From Dictyostelium discoideum (taxonomy: Eukaryota): DNA of 64,000 nucleotides. The translations under genes were made by a program, and so were the position numbers. The DNA is taken from assembly GCA_000004695.1 (NCBI GenBank), contig CM000151.3:768001-832000 (forward strand), written 5' to 3'. Shown one piece after another: positions 5,062 to 23,676 of this stretch; position 1 is the stretch's first letter, and the number at the start of each line of letters is the position of its first letter. The notes below the pieces were generated by a model. That model had not been told where the DNA came from. It saw nothing but the letters and a program-made list of their open reading frames with translations, and did not search any database.

Positions 5062-6417
5062 TCAAGTATCTGAAATAATTTCATTTTCATTATTTTTTTT
5101 TGTGGATATTGAAATATTTGATGATTCTTGTTCTTGTTCTTGTTCAATATCATTTTCAACTTCATATTCATCCTCATGATCTTCATCTTCACCTTCACCT
5201 TCATATTCATGATCTTCATCTTCATGATGTTCATATTCATCATTGTTTTCACTATCATGGCCATGTCCCTCCTTAATTCCTTCAATTGGAAGAGCTAGTT
5301 CATTTGTTAAATCATTATTTGATGGTGGATTAAATACAACACTTTCTTGTTTACTTTTACTAAATAAACCAATTGGTTTTATAGAATTTGGTCTTTTCTT
5401 TTTCTCTGATTGATTTCTATTTTTATTTTTATTTTTATTTTTATTTGAATTGGAATGGTCAGAACCATCAGAAGAATCATCATCATCATCATCACAATCT
5501 TTTTTATCCAATGAAAAACTTGATGATTTTGCAAATGTTTGATTTAATCCTAGACCTTGAGTTGTAATAAAATAAATTTTATCACCAAATAATAAACCTA
5601 TACTAATGGCGGTAGTAGTTACAGAGCATATACAAATTATAGTCTCTAGAGATGCAATCGGTTGTGGTGATGATGCTGATGATGATGATGAAGATGGTGC
5701 AATTAATAATATTATAGTGAAAATACAAAATAAAATTATAAATACACTAGTAGTAATTGGTTTTGATTCATTAAATTCTTCAATATCAACCAATTTGATT
5801 TTAAATGAAATAAAACATGTACCTAATAATTTTAAACCATGGAATGCTAACAATATATACAATGCGATCGAACCTTGATCATTATTCGTACAAACATTTG
5901 TATATTGATAAAATGATGTTCCTATTATTCTAGACTCCGATTTAATATCACCCAAACCTTGCCATAATGCTAATATCAATACATCAACCACTAATATACC
6001 AGCTACCCATGGATACAATTTCCAATTTGTAATTGAACGTTTTCTTAATTTTTTATTATCAAATAATAACCAAACTCTCCAATTCTTTATCAATAAACTA
6101 CCCAAGAAAATTGTATAACCAATACTTAATAGCCAAACTCTACCTTGACAAGTTTTATCTGTTGCTGGTTGTGAAAATAAAATACAACCAGTGAAAATAA
6201 CTATACATCCAAATAAAATTAACAATAAAAATGATGGGCTTGATGATTTTAAAATTCTTGCATTTCTAAGTACTGTAATAAAAATCATTCCCAAAACACA
6301 AATAAATATACAAAATATTGATACACTTAGTATACTAATTTTAATTGAATTTGAATAACTATCAACCTATATTAATTAATAAATATTAATATGTAATCAT
6401 ATTATTATTATTATTAA

Positions 6418-6475
<58 letters not shown>

Positions 6476-7760
6476 ATTATTATTATTATTATTATTATTA
6501 TTAAAACTTACAAATTCTAATATTTCTTTATTATCAATAATTTTTATATTTGAAGCATTTAAAAGGTGTGAATTTGAGAATTGTTCATTTGTAATACAAC
6601 CATTTGTTTGTTTTTGATTGTAGATATTATTAAATAAATTATTACATAAATGAGGGAAATAATAATTTGTTGAATGATTTTTTAGTTTATTTATTTCATC
6701 ATTAATTTGTTTTTGATAAATTTTTGGAATGAAATTATAATTTATTATTGGTTCAATTTCTGGGGTAAAATTAGTTGTTCCATTTAATCTTGAAAAACTA
6801 GTTATATAAATTATATCATAATCTACCCAACTACCATTAATTATAGTATTGGTTATATCTATTAATAGTTGAGACCATTCTAATTTAAAAGAGAATGGAA
6901 ATTTATCATTATAAATTTTTGAATATTCAAAACCTGTTAAACCCAATCCAATACCACCATTATCAATTACTGCCAATTGAATAGAATTATCATCTTGATC
7001 ACTTCCAATGAAATCTACACCTTTTGAAATTAATAATTTCGAAATTTTATATGATATTTTTTTATTATTATTTTGATTATTAAAATTATTTGAGCATACT
7101 AAAAATGTAATATTTGGATTACTATTAATTGCTCCAATATAAAATGCGTTTGTTAATCTTTGATAATCTGTTTCAATATTTTTTGTTGAAATAAATCCAA
7201 TTTTACCAGTCTTTGAAATTAAACTTGAAATGAATCCCAAATAATAAAAAGATAGGTCACTATTTATATTCAATATTTTCACTCTTGGTAAATCATCAGG
7301 TATTGGTCTTTCATTATCATTTCCTTTTATTAACCAAAATATTTCTTTATTTTTATACAAACGTGAATAATTAATTATAAAATTTGAATGTGAGTTAATT
7401 GTAGAAATTAAAAAATTGCTTCCTTTATTAATTGATTCAATAATTGCATTATTTATTGCCTAATATTATGTTTTGGGTGTGTGGTGTGAGAAATAAAAAA
7501 AATTAGTGAAAATATGAAAAAAAGCGAAAAAAAAAAAAAACAAAAACACTTACATTTTGATTATTTTCCAAATTAGTAAAAACAATTGAATTTATATTTA
7601 AATTTTTTTCAACTTGTGTCCTTGCATAATTAAACATATAATTAACTCCAATATCATTATAATCACCTGATAGTAACAATGATATTTTACAAATATTTTT
7701 GTTTGAAAGTGCACCAACAACACAGTTCAAAATTAAAATCAAAAAAAACACTTTTTTCAT
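5062..7760 (-). CDS. class C (metabotropic glutamate/GABA-B-like) GPCR with an N-terminal Bmp/PnrA-like periplasmic-binding domain, Grl-family member A; exons 7554..7760, 6512..7459, 5062..6366
   Basis: Exon 1 encodes a signal peptide (MKKVFFLILILNCVVGALS) plus ...KISLLLSGDYNDIGVNYMFNYA, the Bmp-family GxxGDxGFN motif. Exon 2 continues the Bmp fold, and exon 3 encodes 7 TM helices with family-3 motifs (RVWLLSIGYTIFLGSLLIKNWRVWLLF...NWKLYPW). Introns: 7460..7553 (GTAAGT...AG) and 6367..6511 (GTAAGT, contains (ATT)n, acceptor atag|GTTGAT). Exon lengths give 207 + 948 + 1305 nt, all in frame. The C-tail is acidic and His-rich. Confidence 0.85.
6401..6503. repeat. (ATT)n imperfect microsatellite within the second intron of GPCR gene A
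   Basis: Seen in the sequence. The ORF track reads it as poly-N, but it lies downstream of the GAA TTT|GTAAGT donor, so it is intronic. Confidence 0.85.
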
Positions 7761-8317
7761 TTTTAATTCTATTATTTTAATATTAATTTTTATGGTTTGC
7801 TTAAAAGCATTGTATTTTTATTATTCATAATAAAAAAAACAAAAATGGTCTTGGTGTTATTATCAAAATAAAAAAAAAAAAATAAAAAAAAAAAATATTA
7901 TTATTATATTATTATAAAATAAAATTTTAAATTTAAATTTTTTAAAAAAAAAAAAAACAAAAAAGTACAAAACAAAACAAAACAAAAAAAATTGGATTTG
8001 TCATTACAATAATATGTAAAGGTATTAAAATCCATTTTTTATCTTTTTGATTGGTTTAAATTTATTTTTGGCCAAAAAAATCAATTTCATGAAAAATTAA
8101 TGAAAAAAAAAATAAAAAAAAAAATAAATAAAAAATTCTTTTTGTTTTTTTTGAAAAAAAAAGTGTATAAAAGATTATATATTTGATTACCCACCCTTTA
8201 TTATTATTATTATTATTATTTTTATTATTTAATTTTATTTTATTTTTTAACCATGTATATATAAATTCTATAAAATTTTTTTTTTTATTTTTATTTTTTT
8301 TTTTTTTTTTTTTTTTA

Positions 8318-10661
8318 TTAAAGGTTATTAGAATCAATTTCAACTTCACCGTTTAATTGATTTGATAATCTTTTTGATTGAATTACTGATACATTATTTT
8401 CTTCAATGTTTTCTTCTGGTTGTATGATATCTTCATTACTTCCAGCAATTTGTTCATCTTTTTCTTCATCAATTTGTTGAGTTTCATTTTCATCATCTTC
8501 AGTATCACTACTGAAATGAGCCAAAACACTTTGTTGAGTTACGACTATTGCTTTTTTACCATTTTCTTCTGATGATTCTGAATCATCTTCTTCGCCAGTT
8601 TTCTTTTTCTCTAATGATTGTGAGAAACTTGATGATTTTGAACTTGAAGCGAATGTTTGATTTAATGCGGCACCTTGAGTTATCATCTTGTAGAATTTAC
8701 TGCCAAATAGTAATATTATACTAATTAAAGTTGTAACAATTGCACAAACACAAATTGTTGTAACTTGACTTGTAACTGATTGTGGTGATACCATTAATGG
8801 AATAACAATGAATAAACAAAATGTAATGATATAAACACTTGATGCGATTGGTTTTGATTCATTAAATTCATCAATATCTACAACTTTAATTTTAAATGAA
8901 ATAAAACATGCCACTAGTAATTTAATACCATGAAATACCAATAATATATATAACGCAATTGAACCTTGATCATTACTTGAACAAACATTTGTATATTGAT
9001 ACTTTGTTAATGAATCAATACCAATTCTAGACTCTGATCTAATATTACCCAAACCTTGCCAAAATGCTAATATCAATACATCAGCAGCTAATATACCAGC
9101 TACCCATGGATACAATTTCCAATTTGTTATTGAACGTTTCTTTAATTTTGGATTATCAAATAGTAACCAAATTCTCCAATTCTTTACTAATAAACTACCC
9201 AAGAAAATAGTGTAACCAATACTTAATAACCAAACTCTTGCTCTACAAGTTCCTTCATTTGGTGATTGTGAAAATATAATACAACCAATAAATATTAAAA
9301 TACACCCCATTAAAATTAAAAATAAAAATGCAGGACTTGCTGATTTTATAATTCTTGCAGTTCTAAATACCAATACTATAATAATTGATATAATACATAA
9401 AAATATACAAATTGATGATGTAATTGTAATACCCAATTTCATTGAACTTGAATAATCAACCTATTATAATATAAATAAAAAAAATTTAATTATTATTTGT
9501 TTTTTTTTTTTTTTTTTTTTTTTTCACAAAACTTACAAATTCAATTGGAATTGTATAAGTTCCAAAACTAATTGTTTTTGAATATTTATCACCTTTTAAA
9601 ACTTGTTGATTTTTTTCAAATTCATTATATGAAATACAACCATTAACATCTAATTTATATCCGAGGTCAATGTACATTGGATTACATCTAAATGGGTTGA
9701 AATCATCATTTTTTAAAATTTCAATTTCATTATTTACTAAATCTCTAATTGATTGTGGTACAAGATAACTATATTCATCAAATAATAATGAACCACCAGG
9801 ATTTAATGAAGTTTTATAGTAATCACTGTCTGGCCAAGTATCATTTATGACATGAGAAGCATATTTTACAAATACATCAGTCCAATCGGTGATATAGGAT
9901 AAACCGATATTTGCACTACCATAAATTAAACGAGTTGGATAACCAGTTACACCTAATCCTAGACTACCACTATCAATAACTGCTTTTTGAACAGACATAT
10001 CATCTTGAGACATACCAAGGAAATCAGCACCATTTGAAATTAACATCTCTGCCGCTTTATATGCAACCTCTGGGTTAAACCAGGAACCAGTGAATGTTGT
10101 CACAAAAGTAATGTTTGATCTTGCTTCTTTTGCACCCAAATAAAATGCATTACCATTTGATGCTATATATGCACCGGGGCTTACAAATCCAACAACTCCG
10201 GTTTTTGACATTTTACCAGCGAAATAACCAAGTGTGAAATGAGCACGATCAGTATTAAAATCCAAAACTGCAACTTTTGGTAAATAATCAACTGGTCTTG
10301 CAGATGTTTTTATAATCCAATAGATATCGGAATCTTTATATAGTTTAGCATATTTGAGTCCCATTTCAGTTTGACCACTTGATGCAACAACAATTAAATT
10401 TGCGCCTTGAGCAATAGCATCTTTAAATGAAGCTTCGGAAAGTTCTTCAGATTCATCCAAATTTTTATAATATAATGAAAAATCAGATAATTTTAATATT
10501 GATTCTGCCTTTACTCTTGCTTCATTAAATTGATAATTATATCCAAGATCTGAAAAGTCACCACTTAATAATACAGCTATTTTACAATTTTTTGATTTAA
10601 CAAATTTTGAATAATTAAAAAAAATTAAAATTAAAAGAATAATTGAAATTAAATTTTTCAT
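8318..10661 (-). CDS. class C GPCR with Bmp/PnrA-like extracellular domain, Grl-family member B; exons 9537..10661 and 8318..9460
   Basis: Signal peptide MKNLISIILLILIFF. Bmp motif KIAVLLSGDFSDLGYNYQFNEA. The donor is ...IPIEF|gtaagt, the intron (9461..9536, 76 nt) is poly-T rich, and the acceptor is aatag|GTTGATTATTCAAGTTCA ATG. The 7TM exon is about 90% identical to gene C. Both exons are multiples of 3 nt, in phase 0. Confidence 0.88.
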
Positions 10662-10795
10662 TTTATTTGAACTTTTTTTTTTTTTTTTATATATATTTAA
10701 ATTCTTTTATTTTTAATTTATTTTTATTATATTTATTTTTAGTTTTATATAAAATGATTTTGATTTTTAAAAGAATGTTTATTTTAGTTTTTTAA

Positions 10796-10831
<36 letters not shown>

Positions 10832-11737
10832 TAATATTGTAATGATACAAATTTAATTTTATCAGAAATTTATATCTTTTAAAAATTATATAAATAATTT
10901 CTATTTATAAAACAAAGGGAAGTAAAAAAAAATAAAAGAAAAAAAGAAAAATAAAAAATAAAAAAAGACTAAGGTTATTTTTTTTTTTTTTTTTTTTTTT
11001 TGCTATGCAAAAACTATTAAGAACAAATATTAAAAAAAAAAAAAATTAGCAAATTTCTTTTTGCAGCGACAAACGAATTACATCTCTCTGCTGTGATTAA
11101 AAAATTGTAATGACTTGATTGGGTGAGCAAAATTTTAAAGTCCCCAATAAATTTGAAATTCAATCAATTTGATCATAGCAGTTTAAAAAACTGTTTTTGT
11201 ATTTGCCAAACGTAATTTTGAAAAATCTCGAAATAATTCAAAAAAAAAATTTGTCTAAAAAATTAAAAAATATCTAATCTTGATTGGTTTTCTCAAAAAC
11301 TTATCGTCGAAAATAAAAAAAAAAATAAAAAAAAAAAAAATTCTTAAAAACTATTATTATAACAGAGTTTTTGTTTTTAAATTTTTTTTTTTTTTTTTAA
11401 AAAAAAAACAAACTTTTTGATTTTTATTATTTTCCAACCTAAATTCGTTCAAAAAAATATCTTTTTTTTTTTTTAACATATCATATGAGACAAAAAAAAA
11501 AAAAAAAAACAGTTTTCGGCCTTTGGTTCGAATAAACTGTTTAAAATATCATAATAAAAATAATTAAAAAAAAACGAAAACAAAAAAAAAAAAAAAAGAA
11601 GAAAATAAAAAATAGATAAAAATAAAACAATTTATTATTTTTAAAAAAAAAAAAAAAAAATTAATACTATATATTGTTTTATTATTTTTTTGGTTCTATA
11701 AAAATTTCTTCACTTTTTTTTTTTTTTTTTTTTATAA

Positions 11738-14211
11738 TTATACATCATCTGGATCGATTTCAGATTGATTAAAATTTTTTGATAATCTTTTCTTTTGTAT
11801 TATTGATTGATTTTCATTATCTTTTTCTAAATTTTCATCTTTTTCTAAATTTTCATCTTTTTCTAAATTTTCATCTTTTTCCAACTTTTCTACTTTTTGA
11901 CAATCTTCAACTATATTATTTTGATTATTTTGATTATTTTCAATTTCATTTTCATCATTTTGATTTTCTAAATCAAGTTTTGAATCTTGTTCAGCACTTG
12001 TACAACTATCACTACTGAAATGAGCTAATCTCGAATGATTATGTTGAAGATTAGGAATTTCACTATTTGAATAGTTTTTAATTTGTGGTAATTTCTCTTC
12101 AGATTCATCAGAATCTTCAAATTCTAAACCATTTGATTTTGATTTTTGTTTCTCTAATGAAAGTGAGAAACTTGATGATTTTGTATTTGTTGCAAATGTT
12201 TGATTCAATGCAAGACCTTGTGTTGCCATCATATAAAACTTACTACCAAACAATAGTGATATACTAATTAAAGTTGTAACAATTGCACATACTACAATGG
12301 TTATCACTTGACTTGCAACTGATTGTGGTGATACCATTAATGGAATAACAATGAATAAACAAAATGTAATGATATAAATACTCGATGCGATTGGTTTTGA
12401 TTCATTAAATTCTTCAATATCAACAGCTTTGATTTTAAATGAAATAAAACATGCTGCCAATAATTTAATACCATGAAAAACCAATAATATATATAACGCA
12501 ACTGAACCTTGATCATTACTTGAACAAACATTAGCATATTGATACTTTGTTAATGAATCAATACCAATTCTAGATTCTGATCTTATATCACCCAAACCTT
12601 GCCATAATGCTAAAATCAATACATCAGCAGCTAATATACCAGCTACAAATGGATACAATTTCCAATTTGTTATTGAACGTTTCTTTAATTTTGGATTATC
12701 AAATAGTAACCAAATTCTCCAATTCTTTACTAACAAACTACCCAAGAAAATTGTATAACCAATACTTAATAACCAAACTCTAGCACCACAAATACCATCA
12801 GTTGGTGATAGTGAAAATATAATACAACCAGAAAAAATAATAATACAACCAAATAAAATCAATAAACAAAATATTGGACTTGCTGATTTAATTATTTTTG
12901 CATGTCTAAACATTATTACTAACACCATTGATATAATACAAAACAAAATACAAAATCCAGAAACAATTGTTAATCCAAGTTTCATTGAATTTGAATAATC
13001 AACCTATATCATAAAATTAAAATAAAAAATATTAATATTTCAAATTTAATATTGTTTTTATTTTAATTTTTCACACTTACAAATTCAATTGGAATTGTAT
13101 ATAAACCAAGATTAATAGTTTTTGAAATATCAGTACCTTTTAATAATAATTTAGTATTTTTAAATTCCATATCATTTGCACAACCATTTGAATCAAAATT
13201 TAAATTAATTTGACTATACATTGGATTACATCTAAATGGTTGATAGGAACTATTTTTTAATTTTTCAATTTCAAGAGAAACAAGTTTTTGAACTTCAGAT
13301 GGAACACGATAACTAAATGTATCGAATAGCAAAGAACCACCCTCAGCTAATGTTGTATAGTAGTCAGTGTATTCTGGCCAGGTATCATTTAAGATATGGC
13401 CAGCGTATTTAATGAAAACATCACTCCAATCTGTGATATAGGAAAGAGCGATATCACTACCCCAAATTAAACGATTTGAAAAACCGGTAATGCCCAATGC
13501 CATTTTACCACTATCCATCAACGCCTTTTGAACAGACATATCATCTTGTGACATACCGATGAAATCTGCTCCATTGGAAATTAACATTTGTGATGCTTTA
13601 TATGCAACCTCTGGATTATACCATGAGCCAGTGTATGCATTTAAAAATGTTACATTTTTTCTTGATGCCAATGCACCCAAATAAAAACTATTGGAATTGG
13701 CAAGTGCCAATATTTGAGGACCTGGCGAAATAAACCCAACTGTACCACTGGTTGTTAAATATCCAGATACAAGACCAAGTGTATAATGTAAAAGATGAGT
13801 ATTAAAATTTATAACAGCAACTTTTGGTAAATCATCTGGAACCGGTCTGCCTCTACCTCTAATTAACCAATAGATATCTTTATCTCTATGTAATCTTGCA
13901 TATTCATAACCGATACTTGTATGAACACTTGATGAAATGACAATGAAATTTGCACCTTTTTTAATTGAATCTTCAATTGCTTGTTTGGCCAAATCAATTG
14001 ATACTTCAAGATTTTTATAACACAACGACATCTCCAAATTCAACGCTGATTCTGCTTTAATTCTCGCATTATTCATTTGATAATTATATCCCATATCACT
14101 CCAATCACCACTTAATAATACTGATATTTTACATTGTTTTAATGAATTTATATATTTTAAATTAAATAAAAATGTAATAAATAAAATAATTAAAAATTTT
14201 AATTTATTCAT
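11738..14211 (-). CDS. class C GPCR with Bmp/PnrA-like extracellular domain, Grl-family member C; exons 13081..14211 and 11738..13003
   Basis: Signal peptide MNKLKFLIILFITFLF. Bmp motif KISVLLSGDWSDMGYNYQMNNA. Donor ...IPIEF|gtaagtgtg. The 77-nt intron is 13004..13080, and the acceptor is atatag|GTTGATTATTCAAATTCA ATG. The 7TM domain is nearly identical to gene B. The C-tail carries a (LEKDEN)4 repeat. Confidence 0.88.
11815..11900. repeat. 21-bp tandem repeat (~4 copies) encoding the LEKDEN x4 repeat in the C-terminal tail of GPCR gene C
   Basis: The plus strand shows tctaaattttcatctttttc repeated. On the minus strand this translates to ...KLEKDENLEKDENLEKDENLEKDNEN. Confidence 0.8.
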
Positions 14212-14319: not shown

Positions 14320-14782
14320 TACAGGTATAAATTCTACAATTACAGTTATTATTATGTTAAATTTTCAATTGTGTATCAAATTAAATTAAAAAGAAAAAAA
14401 AAAATAAAAAAATAAAAATGAAGGTTAGTTAAAAATATTTATTAGACAAAAAAAACAAAAAAATAAAGCAAATACTTCATTAACAAATTTTTTAAAAAGA
14501 ACGAGCAAAATCTCGTCTTTCTTGTGATATCATTTCTATTGCCAATTATTTATATAATGGGGTTTTTTGATTTTTTTTTTCCTTTTCTGACCAATCAAAA
14601 ATTGATTACAAAATCTTTGTTTGCAGATTGATTTGACTATTTTTTTTTTTTATTTTTTTTTTTTTTTTAATTTTTTTTTTTTGATTATTTTTGATTATTT
14701 TTGATTATTTTTTTTTTTTTTTTTGATTTTTTTGATTTTTTTTTGCCAGATTAAATCAATTCTTATAACAAGATTGCTAATG

Positions 14783-14815
<33 letters not shown>

Positions 14816-15831
14816 AAAAAAAAAATTTAAAAAAAAATTAAAAATAAAAATAAATAAAAAATAAAAATAAAAAAAATCCTATCGAGTCCAAACCAATGGT
14901 TGGCCGAGAAAAATAATTCATGGTCTGTTTGGTATGAAATTTCTAAAATGTTCAATCATTATTAAACAACGTTTGGCACAAGTGGATATTGATTATTCAC
15001 CCAAAAAGATACTTTATTTCCATTTTTTTTTTTATTCTTTTTATTTTTATTTTTTTTTTTTATTTTTTTTATTTTTTTTTTTTATTAAACAACAAATAAA
15101 TATTGTAATAATCTGTAATTGGTGCATTTTCAAAAATAAAACATTACCCAATCATAGATTTTTTTTTAAAAAATTTTTTTTTTTTTTTTTAAGAAACCTT
15201 TTTATTATTATTTTTTTTGTAACGGTTTTTTTTTTTTTGGGAATGGTTTTTTTTTTTTTATTAAATTAGATTTAAAGGACAATGACAAACAATTTCTTTT
15301 ATTAAAAAGTAACTTGTAAATAAATTTTTATAAAAAAAAAAAAAATATAAATAATAAAAAAAAAAATAAAATAAAATAAATGGTGGTCGAATTAAAATAT
15401 TTTAGTAAATCTGAAATTAAATTTTAAGTTTTTTAAAAAAAAAATGGTTTTAATAATTTATTTAAACCTTTTTTTTCTTCATTTTATTGGATAATAAATA
15501 ACATTTAAATAGTAATAAATACAAAATTTACACCACCAAAAAAAAAATTAAAAAAAACAGAAAATCCACTACTTTTTCTATAAATAATAATTTTTTAAAA
15601 AAAAAAAAAATATATATATATATATTAATAACACAAACCACACCACCACAACCAATAGTTTAATTTACAATAAATTTTTTTTATTTTTTTATTTTTTTAT
15701 TATTTTTTTTATAAATAATTTCTTCTTCTTTATTTTAAATTTTCTTTCTTATTATTTAATTATAATTATTATTATTATTAAAAATAAAAATTTTTTAAAA
15801 CTTTTTTTTTTTTTTTTTTTTTTTATTACAA

Positions 15832-16785
15832 ATGAAATCAATTCAAAAATTACAAAAAACATGGTTAATTTCTGGAAGTTCAAAAGGTTTAGGATTCTCT
15901 TTATTAATAAAATTATTAAAATCTGGTTTTAATGTTGCAGCATTTACAAGAAATAAAGAAACTATTGAACAATCCATTATTGAATTTGAAAATGATGAAA
16001 ATGATGAAATCAAAATTGATAAAACCAATTTATTAATAATACAAGTTGATATAACTGATAATGAAAATGTAAAGAAATCAATTGATCAAGTTATTGAAAG
16101 ATTTGGAAGTATTGATGTTGTTACCAATTGCGCAGGGTATGGATTATTTGGAGCATTTGAATATTGTAGTGAACAAGAAGTGTTTAAACAATTCCAAGTG
16201 AACCTTTTTGGTACTTTTAATGTTGTAAGAAATTCAATACCACATTTAAGAAATAATAGTAATAATACACTTGGACCTAGAATCTACAACATATCATCCA
16301 TATGTGGATTCTTTTCATCATTTGCTGGAATATCAATGTACAATTCGTCAAAATCAGCAATTGATGGATTTTCAGATAGTTTGAATGCAGAATTACGGGA
16401 AAAGAATATACATGTCACTGTTGTGAATATCGGTGGTTTGAGAACATCGTTTTTGAAAGCAAATGGTGATAGTGTTTTGGCAAAGGATAATGACAGGGAT
16501 ACCTATAGAAGTGCAACAGATATCATTGATAAACATTTCAATGAAATCAATGGTAATCAATTAGGTGATCCAAATAAAGTTGCAGATATCTTAATTTCAA
16601 TGGCTATTAATAATACAGAACCTCCAATGCATTTATTCTTAGGTTCAGATTCAATTTGTTTAGCTCAATTAAAATTAAAATTATTATCTGAAGAAATTGA
16701 AAAATATAAATCATTATCAACTTCAATTGATTTTAATAATTCTAAACCATTTGAACTAAGTCATTATATATCTTCAAAAAAATAA
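15832..16785 (+). CDS. short-chain dehydrogenase/reductase (SDR) family oxidoreductase, single exon, 317 aa
   Basis: Cofactor-binding TGxxxGxG motif (ISGSSKGLGFSL). NxAG motif (TNCAGYG). Catalytic S...YxxxK (SSICG...YNSSKSA). Uninterrupted ORF with Dictyostelium codon bias. Confidence 0.9.
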   Translation: MKSIQKLQKTWLISGSSKGLGFSLLIKLLKSGFNVAAFTRNKETIEQSIIEFENDENDEIKIDKTNLLIIQVDITDNENVKKSIDQVIERFGSIDVVTNCAGYGLFGAFEYCSEQEVFKQFQVNLFGTFNVVRNSIPHLRNNSNNTLGPRIYNISSICGFFSSFAGISMYNSSKSAIDGFSDSLNAELREKNIHVTVVNIGGLRTSFLKANGDSVLAKDNDRDTYRSATDIIDKHFNEINGNQLGDPNKVADILISMAINNTEPPMHLFLGSDSICLAQLKLKLLSEEIEKYKSLSTSIDFNNSKPFELSHYISSKK

Positions 16786-19461: not shown

Positions 19462-20110
19462 GTAAGTGTTGGATTTTTTTATTTTTTTTTTTTCTATATT
19501 AAAATATTTATTTTTATTATTATTATTTTTTTATATTTTTATATTTTTTTTTTTTTATTATAAACATATATAAATACAAAAACAATTGTCCCCCCTCATC
19601 AACACCACCACTACCACCAACACCACCACATTTAATTGAAATTTTATTTTAAAAATCAAATTATTACTTTTTTTTTTTATTTGATTAAAATTTTTTTTTA
19701 TTTTTATTTATTTTTTTATTTTTTAACTTAAAACTTTTATTATTATTTATTTTTATTTATTTTTCCACAAAAACATTGTATTATCATAATTTTTATTTAT
19801 TTTTTTATTTTTATTTTTATTTTCACCTTATTAATTAATTTATTTTAATTTATTTTAAAATTTTTAATTATTTATTTTTTTAATTAATTTTTTTTATTAT
19901 TTATTTTTATTTAAATCTACAATATTTTTTTATTTTTTTAATTTTTTTTTCGTTATTATCTTTTATTTTTTTATTTTCTAAACACATTTGGAAAAAAAAA
20001 AAATAAATAAAAAACTAAACAAAAAACCATATTAACCATGAAAATTAAATTATTTATTAAAAAAAAAAAAAAATTTAATTATAATCATCGACATTATTAT
20101 TATCATCATC

Positions 20111-20142
<32 letters not shown>

Positions 20143-20190
20143 ATACAACAACCACAAATACAACAACAACAAATACAACAAAAATTACAG

Positions 20191-23100
20191 TCAGAATTAT
20201 TAATCGGTATTAATGGACATATGAAAAAGATAACGTTAAAATTAAAGAATAATTTAGAAGAGGATCAATATTCAAATTGTGTAAAATATGGGTGGATTGA
20301 GAAAAGATGTGGTAAAAATCAATCATTTAGTTCATGGAAAAGAATGTGGTTTATATTAAAAGATAGTAAACTTACATATTATATTAAAGAAAAGAATTTA
20401 AAGAAAAGATCATCAACAATTGGTAGTACTCAAGAATTTTTTAAACAACAACATGGAATAGATAATAATAATTGTACAAATAGTAATAGTAATAATAATA
20501 ATAATAACTCTGATTTGATTCACTTATCAGCACCTTCATTATCATCATCAACATCATCAACAATATCACCAATAAGCTCATCATCATCATTAACAACTAC
20601 AACAACTACTACAACAACAACTACAAATGCAAACACAAATAATGGATTATCAGATTCAATAAATCATGTATATTTAGAAGGTGAACTTGGTAAAAAGAAA
20701 GAAGGTAAAGGATGGAAAGTTAGATGGATGAAACTATTGGAACATTCATTAGTTTATTATAAATCATCAAAAGATAAAGAACCATTGGGTATAGTTAATT
20801 TGAATGAGTGTCAAGATTGTGAAGTTAATAAAGAATCATCGAATAAATTCGTTGTTGTACATTCAAGTAATCGATACTATTTTAAAACCAATACAAAACA
20901 AGAACTCACTCAATGGGTTAAATCCGTTAAATCTAGAATACCTTCAATCAATCAAACAAAGATGGATTTAGATCAATTCCAATTAAAAGGTGTCATAGAA
21001 TTTAATAGTATACAACAAATCGCTGAAACTTTCAAATTTAATAGTCAACCAAATTGTCTAACAATTACAACTGATGAAAAAGCATATTATCTATCATTCG
21101 ATTCAAATAAAGATAAACTGGATTGGTTAAATCAATTGAATTTAACTATAAATAAATTTAAAGGTGGTTTCAATAGTGGTGGTGGTTCAAATAATTCTTC
21201 ACCATCATCTTTACAATCACAACAAGCTAAGGAGAGTGGTAATGGTGGTAGTTTAAGTCCAAATATACTTGGTAACTTTAAATCATCTATTAAACCATGG
21301 AGATTCTCATCTTCACCTTCTCAAGGTCGTGTTTCAATTGGAGGTGGTGGTGATAGATCATCAACTCAAGTTAAATTTGTTGATAATCCTTTATCAAAAA
21401 GTTCAAATAAAGAGGAGTTTGATGGTGGTGAATATGGTTCACAAATTTTACCAAGAAAATCAACAATCATTGGTCCAAATGGTGGTGTTAAAGTTAGTAC
21501 AAGTGGTGCTGTTGAATTATCACCAGTTTTAATTTCAAGTAATAATAACAATAATAATACAATAAGTTCAAGTGGTAATTCAATACCAACTTGTTTAAGT
21601 GATTTAATTAATGAATCAAGTGATAATGAAGATGGTGATGATTTAAAGATGATGATACCAGAATCATTAAAGAATGAAATGATGAGAAGATCAGCAATTA
21701 GTTCATTGAAAAATTTTAAGTTGGAAATTTTTATTTGGTCAAATCATCAAGAGGTTTTCACATTTCTTTTCTCTGATTCAGTGTTGGTAGATCAAGTTAA
21801 AGCATTTGCTTTTAAAAAGATACCTTCATTAGCAAATTTATCAGTATTGGATTATAGATTAGGTATTGATGAAGATACACTATTGGAAGTGGAATTCTTA
21901 AAGTTTATATATAGTCATACAATGGTTGAATTGGCATTAAAGACTTGTGGTATCGTAAAGATTGGTATTTTCCATCATCGTAAGGATAGAAGAGTTAAAG
22001 AGAAATTATATTCAGATAAATTCTATGGTCATCTTTTATCACAATCACCAGATGGTCGTAAAGGTAATGGTGTTGGTATTGGTGGTAATGGTATACCTAT
22101 TGAGTATTCAAGAAGTGAACCAAATCTTCAATCATGTCTATCATCTTCACCTTCAACTAGAGAAACTATGGTACCATCTTCACCATCATCACATCAATTA
22201 ATAACACCACCACCATCATTAAAACAATATGAACAACAATTATCATCATCATCATCATCATCGTCACAACAACTACAACTACAACTACAACAACAAGAAC
22301 AAGAACAACTATTACAAGAACAACCAGAAGCTGAACAATCACAACCAGAACCACAACCACAATTAGAACCAGAATCAGAAATAGAGATTGAAGAATTAGA
22401 ACAACCAATTGAAGAACTATTGAATATTTCAACTACACCAATATCAATACGTAGTAATTCAATTTTATCAAGTTCAACATCTGCATCATCATCACCATCT
22501 TCAACACCATCATTGACACCAGTAATTGAAAGACAACAAAAAATGTCAGCAGCAGGTTGGCATAGTGTTAATCCAAGTGTAACATTGAATCAACGTAGAC
22601 AATTGATTAGTGGTTGTCCAGGTTGGAATATTGAAGTATCGAATCCAACTTCAACATTCACCAGTCAAGGTTTCAAACCAAAATTCGATAAACAAGAGCA
22701 TGGATTCTATAGACGTTATAATTTCGATGGTACAAGTACGGTTCAAAGCTTTTTAGGTGTAGATATGAAAATGGGACCATTGGCATTCAGTTTGGCAAAA
22801 GATGCCAATGATAACTATCGTGGTGTACTTCATACAAAACATGGCGCAAAGACAATTAGTGAAGATTCTAAAAATATCGTTGGTATTTTAAATCTCCTTT
22901 CATTGAGTAAAAAAGTAAAGACAAAGAAAGTGGTCTCCCATTTAATTGGATTATTGGATCCATCGATCGATGCAAAACTTTTAAATTTAGCTTCAAATCA
23001 ATCAGAGTTACAAAAAGAACTCTTATCATTTGAGGAACGTCAAACCACAAGTGGTTTTAAATTTGGTATGGTCTATTGCAGACATGGTCAAGTCACAGAC

Positions 23101-23676
23101 GATGAAATCTTCTCCAATAAACAAGGTAGTCCAGAGTGGGACGAGTTCTTATCATTGATTGGTGACAAGATTGAATTGGTCGGTTGGCCACATTATAGTG
23201 CTGGTTTGGATGTTAAATTCAATTCAACAGGTACTCACTCTCTATACACCGATTATCATGGAAATGAAGTTATGTTCCATGTTTCAACAATGTTACCTTT
23301 CTCCACTACCGATTATCAACAAATTGAAAGAAAACGTCAAGTTGGCAATGATATTTGTGTTGTCATCTTTAATGATGGTACTCTCTCTTATATGCCAAAT
23401 ACAATCACTTCTCAATTCAATCATGTTATCATTCTTGTTCAATACGATAAACAAAACAATGGTTATAAAGTTTCAATGGCTTGTAAAGATGGTGTTAAAT
23501 CACCTTTCGAACCCCTATCTCCAAATAATTTAATTAAAAAATCTGATATTAAAGATTTCATTTTAACTAAATTAATTAATGGTGAATTGGCTTCATTACA
23601 AGCTCCTGTATTTGCTTCAAAAATTACTAGAACTAGAGAATCTTTATTAAATTATTATATTTCTCAATTTTTATAA
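20191..23676 (+). CDS. Rap GTPase-activating protein with N-terminal PH domains (main exon). If translation instead starts at the upstream ATG, the ORF begins at 20038.
   Basis: Two or three PH-like modules are present (GWIEKRCGKNQSFSSWKRMWFILKDSKLTYY, EGELGKKKEGKGWKVRWMKLLEHSLVYYKSSKD...QWVKSVKS and a third). The C-terminal RapGAP catalytic domain contains the ...GNDICVVIFNDG...ITSQFNHVIILV motif. Ser/Thr/Gln-rich linkers separate the modules. The stop TAA is at 23674-76. Confidence 0.85.
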   Translation, partial: SELLIGINGHMKKITLKLKNNLEEDQYSNCVKYGWIEKRCGKNQSFSSWKRMWFILKDSKLTYYIKEKNLKKRSSTIGSTQEFFKQQHGIDNNNCTNSNSNNNNNNSDLIHLSAPSLSSSTSSTISPISSSSSLTTTTTTTTTTTNANTNNGLSDSINHVYLEGELGKKKEGKGWKVRWMKLLEHSLVYYKSSKDKEPLGIVNLNECQDCEVNKESSNKFVVVHSSNRYYFKTNTKQELTQWVKSVKSRIPSINQTKMDLDQFQLKGVIEFNSIQQIAETFKFNSQPNCLTITTDEKAYYLSFDSNKDKLDWLNQLNLTINKFKGGFNSGGGSNNSSPSSLQSQQAKESGNGGSLSPNILGNFKSSIKPWRFSSSPSQGRVSIGGGGDRSSTQVKFVDNPLSKSSNKEEFDGGEYGSQILPRKSTIIGPNGGVKVSTSGAVELSPVLISSNNNNNNTISSSGNSIPTCLSDLINESSDNEDGDDLKMMIPESLKNEMMRRSAISSLKNFKLEIFIWSNHQEVFTFLFSDSVLVDQVKAFAFKKIPSLANLSVLDYRLGIDEDTLLEVEFLKFIYSHTMVELALKTCGIVKIGIFHHRKDRRVKEKLYSDKFYGHLLSQSPDGRKGNGVGIGGNGIPIEYSRSEPNLQSCLSSSPSTRETMVPSSPSSHQLITPPPSLKQYEQQLSSSSSSSSQQLQLQLQQQEQEQLLQEQPEAEQSQPEPQPQLEPESEIEIEELEQPIEELLNISTTPISIRSNSILSSSTSASSSPSSTPSLTPVIERQQKMSAAGWHSVNPSVTLNQRRQLISGCPGWNIEVSNPTSTFTSQGFKPKFDKQEHGFYRRYNFDGTSTVQSFLGVDMKMGPLAFSLAKDANDNYRGVLHTKHGAKTISEDSKNIVGILNLLSLSKKVKTKKVVSHLIGLLDPSIDAKLLNLASNQSELQKELLSFEERQTTSGFKFGMVYCRHGQVTDDEIFSNKQGSPEWDEFLSLIGDKIELVGWPHYSAGLDVKFNSTGTHSLYTDYHGNEVMFHVSTMLPFSTTDYQQIERKRQVGNDICVVIFNDGTLSYMPNTITSQFNHVIILVQYDKQNNGYKVSMACKDGVKSPFEPLSPNNLIKKSDIKDFILTKLINGELASLQAPVFASKITRTRESLLNYYISQFL

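What the first reader, a model, noticed from the sequence alone, without database searches (positions are those of the whole stretch)
5062..14211. Tandem triplet of Bmp-domain class C GPCR genes with uneven divergence between ligand-binding and 7TM exons
Three same-strand genes (5062..7760, 8318..10661, 11738..14211) share one architecture: signal peptide, Bmp/PnrA-like periplasmic-binding domain, family-3 7TM. The intron position is conserved (…IPIEF|gtaagt … ag|VDYS.SMK). The 7TM exons of copies B and C are about 90% identical at the protein level. Their extracellular exons are much more diverged, and copy A is divergent overall with an extra intron. This points to recent duplication followed by gene conversion of the 7TM exon, or to diversifying selection on the ligand-binding domain. 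Tail composition also differs between copies: an acidic, His-rich tail in A and a (LEKDEN)4 repeat in C.
Basis: partly seen in the sequence, partly recalled or inferred. Interest (0 to 1): 0.6.

Follow-up and report, generated by a model that had tools for sequence, protein, structure and literature searches.

The report
Tandem amoeba receptor genes swapping cores
Three neighbouring, already annotated Dictyostelium class C receptor genes (grlO, grlB, grlA) are old duplicates, and grlA and grlB repeatedly copy a roughly 470-base stretch encoding membrane helices 3 to 6 onto each other while the rest of each gene evolves independently.

Summary
Three minus-strand genes with clean GT-AG models encode a signal-like N-terminus, a Bmp domain and a 7tm_3 domain. 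They are the known D. discoideum genes grlO (copy A), grlB (copy B) and, by length and position, grlA (copy C).

Comparison with five related genomes shows that grlA and grlB are old paralogs. Orthologs form 100% bootstrap clades in the Bmp exon and in the TM7-plus-tail segment, and 97.5-100% in TM1-2. A tract of about 470 bp spanning TM3-TM6 groups by species instead. It lies at window 8774..9241 in grlB and 12317..12784 in grlA.

- In the tract, paralog dS is 0.09-0.20, below ortholog dS of 0.28-0.44. Elsewhere paralog dS is 0.3-0.9.
- Site patterns are 43 concerted versus 13 orthologous in the tract and 36 versus 544 outside (p = 2.5e-33).
- The intron and flanks are at background similarity.

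This is recurrent interlocus gene conversion of part of the exon. It is not recent duplication, and ortholog dN/dS of 0.04-0.23 gives no sign of ongoing diversifying selection on the Bmp domain.

A second tandem Grl pair at a different locus shows the same TM3-TM6 mosaic. A dispersed paralog with equal protein conservation does not. grlO is an occasional participant.

This is a new example of a known process in known genes.

The parts
5062..7760 (-). grlO (copy A). Exons 7760..7554, 7459..6512 and 6366..5062; introns 7460..7553 and 6367..6511. Encodes 819 aa with a partial Bmp domain and a 7tm_3 domain.
   Evidence: Gene model. Pfam hits. The protein is 100% identical to XP_645479.1, 'Metabotropic glutamate receptor-like protein O'.
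8318..10661 (-). grlB (copy B). Exons 10661..9537 and 9460..8318; intron 9461..9536. Encodes 755 aa with Bmp and 7tm_3 domains.
   Evidence: Gene model. Pfam hits. The protein is 100% identical to XP_645480.1, 'Metabotropic glutamate receptor-like protein B'.
11738..14211 (-). grlA (copy C). Exons 14211..13081 and 13003..11738; intron 13004..13080. Encodes 798 aa with Bmp and 7tm_3 domains.
   Evidence: Gene model. Pfam hits. Length (798 aa) and position next to grlB match GrlA in Table 1 of PMC1885808. The exact sequence was not found in the protein collection.
8774..9241 (-). Gene-conversion tract in grlB, residues 449-604 (TM3 to the start of ECL3). The minimal extent is 8804..9220 and the maximal extent is 8762..9265.
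   Evidence: Quartet site patterns, segment dS, NJ bootstrap trees and coordinates. The tract differs from the grlA tract at 25 of 468 nt.
12317..12784 (-). Gene-conversion tract in grlA, residues 451-606. It lies 3543 bp from its partner tract, in direct orientation. The minimal extent is 12347..12763 and the maximal extent is 12305..12808.
   Evidence: Same calls as the grlB tract. AX4 alone shows 15 synonymous differences per 100 synonymous sites in the tract, against 153 per 352 outside (p = 8e-8).
5656..6144 (-). Homologous TM3-TM6 segment of grlO. It appears to be an occasional, patchy recipient of conversion from grlB or grlA.
   Evidence: In the TM4 bin, concerted sites number 19-22 against 15-19 orthologous. 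D. cf. discoideum GrlO has a 71-nt run identical to its GrlB. GrlO ortholog dS is raised in this segment (0.32-0.88, against 0.06-0.47 in the flanks). In a protein tree of this segment, GrlO joins B+C with 79% bootstrap.
11819..11898 (-). An 18-bp tandem repeat encoding the (LEKDEN)n stretch of the GrlA tail.
   Evidence: TRF reports 4.4 copies at 93% match. The repeat is absent from the orthologs.
6400..6503 (-). An (ATT)n microsatellite that fills most of grlO intron 2.
   Evidence: TRF reports period 3 and 34.7 copies.

Best explanation
The three genes are the annotated D. discoideum class C (GABAB-like) receptors GrlO, GrlB and GrlA. Each has a Bmp-type periplasmic-binding-protein ligand domain fused directly to a family-3 seven-helix domain.

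grlA and grlB are ancient tandem paralogs in direct orientation, about 3.5 kb apart. Their ligand-binding exon, TM1-2, TM7 and C-terminal tail have evolved independently under purifying selection.

A segment of about 0.42-0.50 kb encoding TM3, ICL2, TM4, ECL2, TM5, ICL3 and TM6 has been repeatedly overwritten from one copy to the other. This is non-allelic (interlocus) gene conversion. It happened independently in at least four lineages of the D. discoideum species group, and in both directions.

Shown: the tract, its boundaries, its recurrence, its absence from the intron and flanks, the same mosaic in a second tandem Grl pair, and its absence in a dispersed paralog.

Inferred: the mechanism is homologous-recombination repair that uses the neighbouring copy as template. 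The tract is confined to TM3-TM6 because this is the most conserved part of the whole Grl family. It therefore keeps enough nucleotide identity for heteroduplex formation, while divergent flanks block extension or converted flanks are removed by selection.

A few paralog-specific residues persist inside the tract in most species: GrlB W494, V558, V568 and D572 against GrlA F, A, A and E. This suggests patchy tracts or selection against converting those sites.

grlO takes part only sporadically.
For: 1. Gene identity: and PMC1885808.
2. The gene order C-B-A is conserved in D. citrinum, D. firmibasis, D. dimigraforme, D. cf. discoideum and a second D. discoideum strain.
3. Quartet site patterns switch from orthologous to concerted only at GrlB residues about 442-621. 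Bins there run orth 3-36 / conc 17-55, against orth 46-289 / conc 0-14 elsewhere.
4. Site classes: 43 concerted-only (35 at third codon positions) versus 13 orthologous-only in the tract, and 36 versus 544 outside; Fisher p = 2.5e-33.
5. In the tract, within-species paralog dS is 0.085-0.195, below ortholog dS of 0.28-0.44. Elsewhere paralog dS is 0.32-0.89.
6. NJ trees: B and C form 100% ortholog clades in the Bmp exon and in TM7 plus tail, and 100% and 97.5% in TM1-2. The tract groups by species (D. dimigraforme 89%, D. citrinum 77%, D. firmibasis 67.5%).
7. AX4 alone: 15/100 synonymous differences in the tract versus 153/352 outside, p = 8e-8. The ortholog control shows no comparable drop.
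8. Intron and 300-bp flanks are at shuffled-background identity.
9. Replication: a second tandem Grl pair (L007-L010) shows 60 concerted versus 15 orthologous sites in TM3-6, and 38 versus 420 outside, p = 9e-39. Its paralog dS is 0.08-0.14 against ortholog dS of 0.39-0.64.
10. Negative control: a dispersed paralog is 91-92% identical in protein over TM3-6 but only 85% in nucleotides. Its pattern is orthology-dominant (33/7/6 and 28/8/8 for orth/conc/other), against 10/25/1 for the tandem pair in the same two species.
Against: - No conversion event was observed directly; everything rests on comparative inference.
- dS was estimated with Nei-Gojobori and Jukes-Cantor in a genome with extreme AT codon bias. 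Absolute values are unreliable, although the contrasts are internal to the same genes.
- Trees are distance-based (NJ), and two species-wise nodes have only 59-68% bootstrap.
- Four of the comparison genomes were assembled from Nanopore reads and polished with Illumina reads (PMC12745789). Cross-mapping in a 95-97% identical tract could in principle mimic a few concerted sites.
- Between two D. discoideum strains the tract shows almost no concerted sites (1 versus 12 orthologous). Conversion is therefore episodic, and none is demonstrably recent in AX4.
- No GC-biased conversion signature is visible (GC3 is 0.15 in the tract, against 0.07-0.19 elsewhere).
- Why the boundaries fall at TM3 and TM6 is inferred, not tested.
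Confidence: 0.9

Rival explanations
1. There is no DNA exchange. TM3-TM6 is simply under very strong purifying selection and codon-usage constraint, so both amino-acid and synonymous divergence between the paralogs are low there.
For: TM3-TM6 is the most conserved protein segment in all Grl comparisons. Identity there is 77-94% between any two family members. Ortholog dS is slightly lower in the tract than in the Bmp exon (0.28-0.44 against 0.41-0.67; GrlA Ddis-Dfir p = 0.006).
Against: Constraint cannot produce species-specific synonymous states shared by both paralogs (35 third-position concerted sites). It also cannot make paralog dS lower than ortholog dS. A dispersed paralog with the same protein conservation (91-92%) has only 85% nucleotide identity, and its concerted count equals the homoplasy background.
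Confidence: 0.03
2. A recent tandem duplication was followed by rapid divergence of the extracellular Bmp exon, driven by positive selection, with the 7TM exon still close to its state at duplication.
For: The Bmp exon is much more diverged than the 7TM core (59% against 85% protein identity). Paralog dN/dS is higher in the Bmp exon (0.47) than in the 7TM core (0.32).
Against: - B and C each have one-to-one orthologs in five other genomes, with 100% ortholog clades in the Bmp exon.
- Synonymous divergence in the Bmp exon is near saturation (dS 0.6-0.9).
- TM1-2, TM7 and the tail of the same exon are also old.
- Pairwise ortholog dN/dS in the Bmp exon is 0.04-0.23, which indicates purifying selection.
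Confidence: 0.03
3. Conversion is real, but the TM3-TM6 confinement is maintained by selection rather than by homology limits. The two tandem receptors may need an identical helix 3-6 module because they share a G protein or transducer, or because they pair with each other as class C receptors do. On this reading homogenised variants are favoured and conversions elsewhere are purged.
For: - The same TM3-TM6 boundaries recur in two independent tandem pairs.
- The closest solved relatives are the GABAB1 and GABAB2 subunits (E = 2.5e-22). [quoted passage not shown]
- From general knowledge of class C structures, ICL2, ICL3 and TM3 form the G-protein contact, and TM3-TM6 carry the transmembrane dimer interfaces.
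- Paralog-specific residues persist inside the tract.
Against: - There are no interaction or coupling data for GrlA and GrlB.
- Their reported mutant phenotypes differ in developmental stage: grlB mutants show delayed aggregation, and grlA is needed for late development and sporulation (PMC10445921).
- Homology-limited conversion predicts the same boundaries without any selection, because TM3-TM6 is the family's most conserved block.
Confidence: 0.2
4. The concerted pattern is an assembly or polishing artefact. Short reads from one paralog were mapped onto the other in the non-reference genomes.
For: Four comparison assemblies were built from Nanopore long reads plus Illumina short reads (PMC12745789). 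The tract is 95-97% identical within each genome.
Against: - The AX4 reference window itself shows the low-dS tract (p = 8e-8).
- AX4 carries states shared by its two copies and absent from all other species, for example alignment columns 483 and 552.
- The D. firmibasis assembly carries a different accession series and locus-tag prefix (GCA_036169595.1, RB653_) and shows the same pattern.
- No tract is 100% identical, and fixed paralog-specific sites are preserved inside it in most genomes.
- The same signal appears at a second locus.
Confidence: 0.02

Closest known systems
Dictyostelium Grl family of class C GPCRs (GrlA-GrlR): Prabhu et al. 2007, PMC1885808; Hall et al. 2023, PMC10445921
   Same: The three genes are members of this family. 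GrlB and GrlO match the database entries exactly. GrlA matches by length and position. The Bmp-plus-7TM architecture and the clustering of grlA, grlB and grlO on chromosome 2 are already described in those papers.
   Different: Term searches of the two papers found no mention of gene conversion, concerted evolution or a mosaic history of the 7TM domain. The family trees described in those passages use full-length sequences and infer lineage-specific amplifications.
Interlocus (non-allelic) gene conversion between tandem paralogs. Examples from general knowledge include primate L/M opsins, globins, RHD/RHCE and olfactory or vomeronasal receptor clusters.
   Same: A discrete internal tract is homogenised between direct-repeat neighbours. 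Paralogs group by species inside the tract and by orthology outside it. Synonymous sites are affected. The process is recurrent and bidirectional.
   Different: Here it acts on class C receptors of an amoebozoan. It is confined to TM3-TM6 and not to an exon. It has persisted across a divergence described as comparable to human and mouse (PMC12745789). It recurs with the same boundaries in a second tandem pair. No GC-biased signature is visible.
GABAB receptor subunits GB1 and GB2 (for example PDB 7c7q, 6uo8)
   Same: These are the best solved-structure matches to the GrlB 7TM domain (E = 2.5e-22 and 3.6e-21). Like GABAB, the three proteins have a bilobed binding domain joined to the 7TM domain with no cysteine-rich linker detected by Pfam.
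   Different: The ligand domain is of the Bmp/PnrA type, not the ANF_receptor type. Heterodimerisation, a coiled-coil tail and G-protein coupling were not tested. Sequence similarity is limited to the 7TM domain.
Bacterial Bmp/PnrA-like ABC-transporter substrate-binding lipoproteins (Pfam PF02608)
   Same: The N-terminal domain of all three proteins matches this profile above the curated cut-off.
   Different: The domain is fused to a eukaryotic 7TM receptor instead of serving an ABC transporter. In GrlO only profile positions 2-188 of 301 match, and the domain carries poly-Asn insertions.

Membership tests
Class C (family 3) GPCR | Seven-helix domain matching the 7tm_3 profile above the curated threshold. 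| tested here: met
   PF00003 scores 167.1, 180.9 and 184.7 bits against a cut-off of 33.5, covering profile positions 2-251 of 251 in all three proteins. Seven hydrophobic segments are present. The PDB hits found are the class C receptors GABAB, mGlu, GPR156 and GPR158.
Class C (family 3) GPCR | Large extracellular bilobed domain of the periplasmic-binding-protein type, N-terminal to the 7TM domain. | tested here: met
   A Bmp (PF02608) domain is present in all three. It is of the Bmp type rather than the ANF_receptor type, as already described for most Grl proteins (PMC1885808, PMC10445921).
Class C (family 3) GPCR | Cysteine-rich linker domain between the binding domain and the 7TM domain. 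It is present in mGlu, CaS and taste receptors and absent in GABAB. | tested here: not met
   The Pfam scan at E <= 0.01 returned only Bmp and 7tm_3. The Bmp exon joins TM1 within about 10 residues of the intron junction. This matches the GABAB-like subgroup and does not exclude class C membership.
Class C (family 3) GPCR | Signalling through heterotrimeric G proteins, and constitutive dimerisation. | not testable with these tools
   No computation was available. The literature cited in PMC10445921 gives only mutant phenotypes for grlA and grlB.
D. discoideum grlA / grlB / grlO | Sequence identity to the annotated AX4 proteins, and the chromosome 2 cluster. | tested here: met
   Copy B equals XP_645480.1 (GrlB) and copy A equals XP_645479.1 (GrlO), both exact. 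Copy C is 798 aa and adjacent to grlB, as GrlA is in PMC1885808 Table 1. Its exact sequence was not in the collection, so that single assignment rests on length and position.
Interlocus gene conversion / concerted evolution | Paralogs group by species inside a bounded tract and by orthology on both sides of it. | tested here: met
   See the segment NJ trees, the binned quartet patterns and the per-site list. The 5' boundary lies between alignment columns 449 and 464, and the 3' boundary between columns 602 and 617.
Interlocus gene conversion / concerted evolution | Synonymous divergence between paralogs within a genome is lower than between orthologs, in the tract only. | tested here: met
   In the tract, paralog dS is 0.085-0.195 against ortholog dS of 0.28-0.44. 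In the Bmp exon, paralog dS is 0.61-0.89 against ortholog dS of 0.41-0.67.
Interlocus gene conversion / concerted evolution | The signal is not explained by constraint alone, tested with a paralog that is equally conserved but not adjacent. | tested here: met
   A dispersed GrlM-type paralog gives orth/conc/other counts of 33/7/6 and 28/8/8 in TM3-6, with 85% nucleotide identity. The tandem partners give 10/25/1 with 94% nucleotide identity. This control was run for the second pair, not for grlA/grlB.
Interlocus gene conversion / concerted evolution | Direct observation of conversion events, such as segregating tracts in populations or mutation-accumulation lines. | not testable with these tools
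   Only two D. discoideum strains were compared. They show 1 concerted, 3 'other' and 12 orthologous sites in the tract, so no clear event has occurred since their split.
Bmp/PnrA-like substrate-binding protein | Match to PF02608 above the gathering score. | tested here: met
   Scores are 41.1 (GrlO, partial, profile positions 2-188 of 301), 80.2 (GrlB) and 40.2 (GrlA) bits against a cut-off of 24.1.

The most novel reading that the evidence does not exclude
The TM3-TM6 cassette may be kept identical between tandem Grl neighbours because the neighbours work as a unit. They might form a GABAB1/GABAB2-like heteromer, or be two sensors feeding one shared transducer. On this reading gene conversion is the means by which selection keeps their dimer and G-protein interface matched, while ligand domains, TM7 and tails specialise. 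The same module would then be a general design rule for the expansion of the Grl family in group 4 dictyostelids. It would also mean that family trees inferring lineage-specific amplifications are partly distorted by concerted evolution.
Probability: 0.15. Interest if true: 0.7.

Novelty: new member of a known kind. Interest (0 to 1): 0.42.

Why it matters
The genes and their architecture are already known. What is added is their mosaic history.

- **Phylogenies.** Trees of Grl receptors built on the 7TM domain or on full-length sequences mix two histories for tandem members. This can blur orthology and inflate apparent lineage-specific amplification.
- **A functional module.** Helices 3-6 with both intracellular loops are exchangeable between neighbours. 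The ligand domain, TM1-2, TM7 and the tail carry the paralog-specific information. This gives a ready-made guide for chimera design, and a testable hint that GrlA and GrlB share downstream coupling or pair with each other.
- **A dated example.** It documents long-lived, recurrent non-allelic gene conversion in Dictyostelium, replicated at two loci and with an internal negative control.

Tried and rejected
- A second homolog search using only the GrlB 7TM region returned a single odd hit, P0024, a 398-aa model with 7tm_3 and PDR_CDR. It was useless for finding other Grl loci.
- The route that worked was an exhaustive representative search, then P0033, then the last homolog search.
- An exact look-up of the copy C protein found nothing.
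- Intron and flank alignments between B and C are no better than shuffled AT-rich sequence, so they give no usable Ks. They show only that conversion does not extend there.
- GC-biased conversion: GC3 in the tract (0.15) is not distinctive.
- The whole window has no tRNA genes and no Rfam matches.
- D. purpureum could not settle when the duplication arose. Its three paralogs cluster together in every segment, and no sister species was available.
- The idea that GrlO is fully part of the converting set was rejected. Outside a TM4/ECL2 patch its pattern is orthology-dominant.
- Literature searches for gene conversion or concerted evolution in Grl genes found nothing relevant.
- Structure prediction was not used, because no conclusion depended on it.


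Full report
**What is there**

The window is extremely AT-rich Dictyostelium DNA. Translating the minus strand of the three stated intervals gives three clean gene models with GTAAGT...AG introns, all in phase 0.

- Copy A has exons 7760..7554, 7459..6512 and 6366..5062 and encodes 819 aa.
- Copy B has exons 10661..9537 and 9460..8318 and encodes 755 aa.
- Copy C has exons 14211..13081 and 13003..11738 and encodes 798 aa.

Pfam finds a Bmp/PnrA-like domain and a complete 7tm_3 domain in each, all above the curated cut-offs. In copy A only the first two thirds of the Bmp profile match.

The intron just before TM1 is shared: ...IPIEF|VDYS in B and C, and ...EILEF|VDSYS in A. Copy A has one extra intron.

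Copy C's tail holds an 18-bp tandem repeat (11819..11898, 4.4 copies) that encodes the LEKDEN units. Copy A's tail is acidic and contains histidine.

No other family member lies in the window. B versus C protein identity is 85% over the 7TM core, 74% over the whole second exon and 57-59% over the Bmp exon.

**Identity of the genes**

Copy B is exactly XP_645480.1, metabotropic glutamate receptor-like protein B (GrlB). Copy A is exactly XP_645479.1 (GrlO). Copy C has the length (798 aa) and the position next to grlB that Table 1 of PMC1885808 gives for GrlA. Its exact sequence was not in the protein collection.

[quoted passage not shown] It lists no signal peptide for GrlO.

PMC10445921 summarises the known roles. 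grlB mutants aggregate late. GrlA is needed for late development and sporulation.

The genes, their architecture and their clustering are therefore already known.

**Uneven divergence in AX4**

Nei-Gojobori estimates for B versus C are as follows:

| Segment | dS | dN |
|---|---|---|
| Bmp exon | 0.70 | 0.33 |
| 7TM core | 0.29 | 0.09 |
| Tail | 0.66 | 0.35 |

Finer mapping shows the low values come from one block, GrlB residues 449-604. There, nucleotide identity is 94.7% (25 differences in 468 nt). It is 69% in exon 1, 77% in TM1-2, 79% in TM7 and 63% in the tail.

Synonymous differences number 15 per 100 synonymous sites in the block and 153 per 352 outside it (p = 8e-8).

Hydropathy and the alignment to GABAB subunits place the block from TM3 through TM6. 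It includes both large intracellular loops and ECL2.

**Comparative test**

The homolog search returned orthologs of B and C as adjacent genes in four other genomes. I fetched the loci for D. citrinum, D. firmibasis, D. dimigraforme, D. cf. discoideum and D. purpureum, and later for a second D. discoideum strain.

The order C-B-A, flanked by the same short-chain dehydrogenase gene, is conserved in all except D. purpureum, which has two tandem copies. My exon models reproduce nine of the ten annotated proteins exactly; the tenth, D. cf. discoideum GrlA, had no deposited protein to compare with.

Four results agree on a codon alignment of B and C from five genomes.

- **Quartet site patterns.** Patterns summed over species pairs are overwhelmingly orthologous everywhere (per 30-codon bin, orth 46-289 against conc 0-14). 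The exception is GrlB residues about 442-621, where concerted patterns dominate (orth 3-36 against conc 17-55). The third possible pattern is essentially absent there.
- **Unique sites.** The tract holds 43 concerted-only sites, 35 of them at third codon positions, and 13 orthologous-only sites. The rest of the gene holds 36 and 544 (Fisher p = 2.5e-33).
- **Synonymous divergence.** In the tract, within-genome paralog dS (0.085-0.195) is lower than between-species ortholog dS (0.28-0.44). In the Bmp exon paralog dS (0.61-0.89) exceeds ortholog dS (0.41-0.67). Ortholog dS in the tract is only slightly lower than elsewhere, so mutation rate or codon bias cannot explain the drop.
- **Trees.** Bootstrapped NJ trees give 100% ortholog clades for B and for C in the Bmp exon and in TM7 plus tail, and 100% and 97.5% in TM1-2. 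In the tract B and C pair by species: D. dimigraforme 89%, D. citrinum 77%, D. firmibasis 67.5%, and a joint D. discoideum plus D. cf. discoideum clade at 59%.

The per-site list shows many third-position states that co-vary in both paralogs across species, for example AATTT/AATTT, AACCA/AACCA and AATCT/AATCT.

The 5' boundary lies between alignment columns 449 and 464, and the 3' boundary between columns 602 and 617. In window coordinates the working tract is 8774..9241 in grlB and 12317..12784 in grlA.

The intron and 300-bp flanks of B and C align no better than shuffled sequence in any species. An internal patch flanked on both sides by orthologous sequence is the signature of gene conversion, not of unequal crossing-over.

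**History**

The duplication predates the split of these species. [quoted passage not shown]

At least four lineages homogenised the tract independently.

Direction appears to be both ways. D. firmibasis GrlB carries the GrlA-type F494 and E572. D. dimigraforme and D. firmibasis GrlA carry GrlB-type states at columns 516 and 592.

In the D. discoideum lineage the last homogenisation is older than the split of the two strains compared (1 concerted against 12 orthologous sites in the tract). It is about as old as, or younger than, the split from D. cf. discoideum (8 against 8 in the tract, 0 against 56 in the flanks).

A few non-synonymous paralog-specific sites persist inside the tract in most or all species: W494/F, V558/A, V568/A and D572/E. 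Conversion is therefore patchy, or those sites are protected by selection.

**Copy A (grlO)**

Outside a short region its pattern with B and C is orthologous. In the TM4 bin, however, concerted sites equal or exceed orthologous ones (19-22 against 15-19).

D. cf. discoideum GrlO has a 71-nt run identical to its GrlB.

GrlO ortholog dS is raised specifically in TM3-6 (0.32-0.88, against 0.06-0.47 in the adjoining segments). That is expected if foreign patches are imported in some lineages.

In protein trees GrlO is basal in the Bmp domain but joins B+C in the tract with 79% bootstrap. I read this as occasional, short conversion into grlO. The evidence is suggestive, not conclusive.

**Generality and control**

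Using the exhaustive representative search and the last homolog search, I found a second tandem Grl pair at an unrelated locus and fetched it from four genomes (L007-L010). It is probably grlH/grlC, which are adjacent on chromosome 3 in Table 1 of PMC1885808. That identity is not verified.

It has the same intron position and the same mosaic.

- Concerted sites dominate from the end of TM2 to ECL3. In one bin, for example, there are 9 orthologous and 38 concerted sites.
- Paralog dS in TM3-6 is 0.08-0.14, against ortholog dS of 0.39-0.64.
- The Bmp exon, TM7 and the tail are orthologous.
- Site classes are 60 against 15 in the tract and 38 against 420 outside (p = 9e-39).

As a negative control I used a dispersed paralog of that subfamily, of the GrlM type (L011, L012). 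It is as conserved in protein over TM3-6 (91-92% identity to either tandem gene, against 94% between them). Its nucleotide identity is only 85%, and its quartet pattern is orthology-dominant, with concerted counts equal to the homoplasy class (33/7/6 and 28/8/8). The tandem pair gives 10/25/1 in the same two species.

Protein-level constraint therefore does not generate the signal. Adjacency does.

**Mechanism**

Shown: recurrent, bounded, bidirectional homogenisation of TM3-TM6 between direct-repeat neighbours about 3.5 kb apart.

Inferred: this is homologous-recombination repair that uses the neighbouring copy as template. The tract is limited to the segment that purifying selection keeps similar enough for heteroduplex formation, which gives a self-reinforcing loop. 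Diverged flanks stop extension, or selection removes conversions that would overwrite the paralog-specific ligand domain, TM1-2, TM7 and tail.

A selective reading cannot be excluded. In it, the neighbours need a matched helix 3-6 module for a shared G protein or for pairing, as class C receptors do. It is the most interesting open possibility, but nothing here tests it.

**Rivals**

- Constraint alone is contradicted by the concerted synonymous sites, by paralog dS falling below ortholog dS, and by the dispersed-paralog control.
- Recent duplication with diversifying selection on the Bmp domain is contradicted by the one-to-one orthologs, by near-saturated dS in the Bmp exon, and by ortholog dN/dS of about 0.04-0.23.
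- A polishing artefact is unlikely. The AX4 reference alone shows the tract and carries shared derived states of its own. The D. firmibasis assembly, with a different accession series and locus-tag prefix, agrees. Fixed differences survive inside the tract. A second locus replicates the result.

**Novelty and score**

The genes are known, and gene conversion between tandem paralogs is a familiar process. Term searches of two Grl papers and four full-text library searches found no report of gene conversion or concerted evolution for Grl receptors.

I rate this a new member of a known kind, of moderate interest. It corrects how Grl phylogenies should be read. It defines an exchangeable TM3-TM6 module, replicated at two loci. 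It gives a concrete, testable hypothesis about shared coupling or pairing of GrlA and GrlB.

Noticed in passing
window 6367..6511 (repeat at 6400..6503): Intron 2 of grlO consists almost entirely of an (ATT)n microsatellite of 34.7 copies. In D. firmibasis and D. dimigraforme the corresponding intron is short and was bridged in-frame by tblastn.
   Followed up: partly
window 11819..11898: The 18-bp LEKDEN repeat in the GrlA tail is specific to the AX4 lineage. The orthologous tails in the other genomes have different acidic, Lys-rich sequence there. The second D. discoideum strain encodes a longer GrlA (810 aa, against 798 aa in AX4).
   Followed up: partly
window 6512..7459 (grlO exon 2); L002 and L003: The GrlO Bmp domain matches only profile positions 2-188 of 301. 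It carries poly-Asn runs whose length varies greatly between species (very long in D. firmibasis). GrlO evolves faster than GrlA or GrlB. PMC1885808 lists no signal peptide for it, despite a hydrophobic N-terminus.
   Followed up: partly
L007 4139..6490 and 8001..10360; L008, L009 and L010, equivalent genes: A second tandem Grl pair at a different locus (probably grlH/grlC), next to Arf and Glyco_hydro_20 genes. It shows the same TM3-TM6-limited concerted evolution in four genomes.
   Followed up: yes
L004 6403..8706 and 10001..12339 (D. purpureum): The D. purpureum tandem pair has very uneven dS: 0.43 in the Bmp exon, 0.095 in TM1-2 and 0.20 in TM3-6. It also has a 189-nt identical run in the tail. 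All three D. purpureum paralogs cluster by species in every segment. The cause could be an independent duplication or broader conversion. This cannot be resolved without a sister species.
   Followed up: partly
L005, GrlO gene (about 14434..15675), TM4/ECL2 region: D. cf. discoideum GrlO carries a 71-nt run identical to its own GrlB, where AX4 GrlO is about 85% identical and has a 2-codon deletion. It looks like a recent short conversion into grlO.
   Followed up: partly
P0024 (D. discoideum ACTFIW_009895, not in the window): A 398-aa predicted protein combines a 7tm_3 domain (58% identical to the GrlB 7TM domain) with a PDR_CDR ABC-transporter Pfam hit. It may be a mis-joined gene model or a truncated Grl paralog.
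   Followed up: no
window about 11040..11560 and about 14440..14660: Islands of higher-complexity, less AT-rich non-coding sequence lie in the intergenic regions upstream of grlB and grlA. The whole window has no tRNA gene and no Rfam match. Their conservation in the other species was not checked.
   Followed up: no
window 15832..16785 (+) and 20038..23676 (+): ORFs lie at the positions where the syntenic loci have a short-chain dehydrogenase gene and a PH/RapGAP gene, so synteny around the cluster is conserved in the D. discoideum group. An IPK gene lies beside the Grl genes in both the D. discoideum-group loci and D. purpureum.
   Followed up: partly
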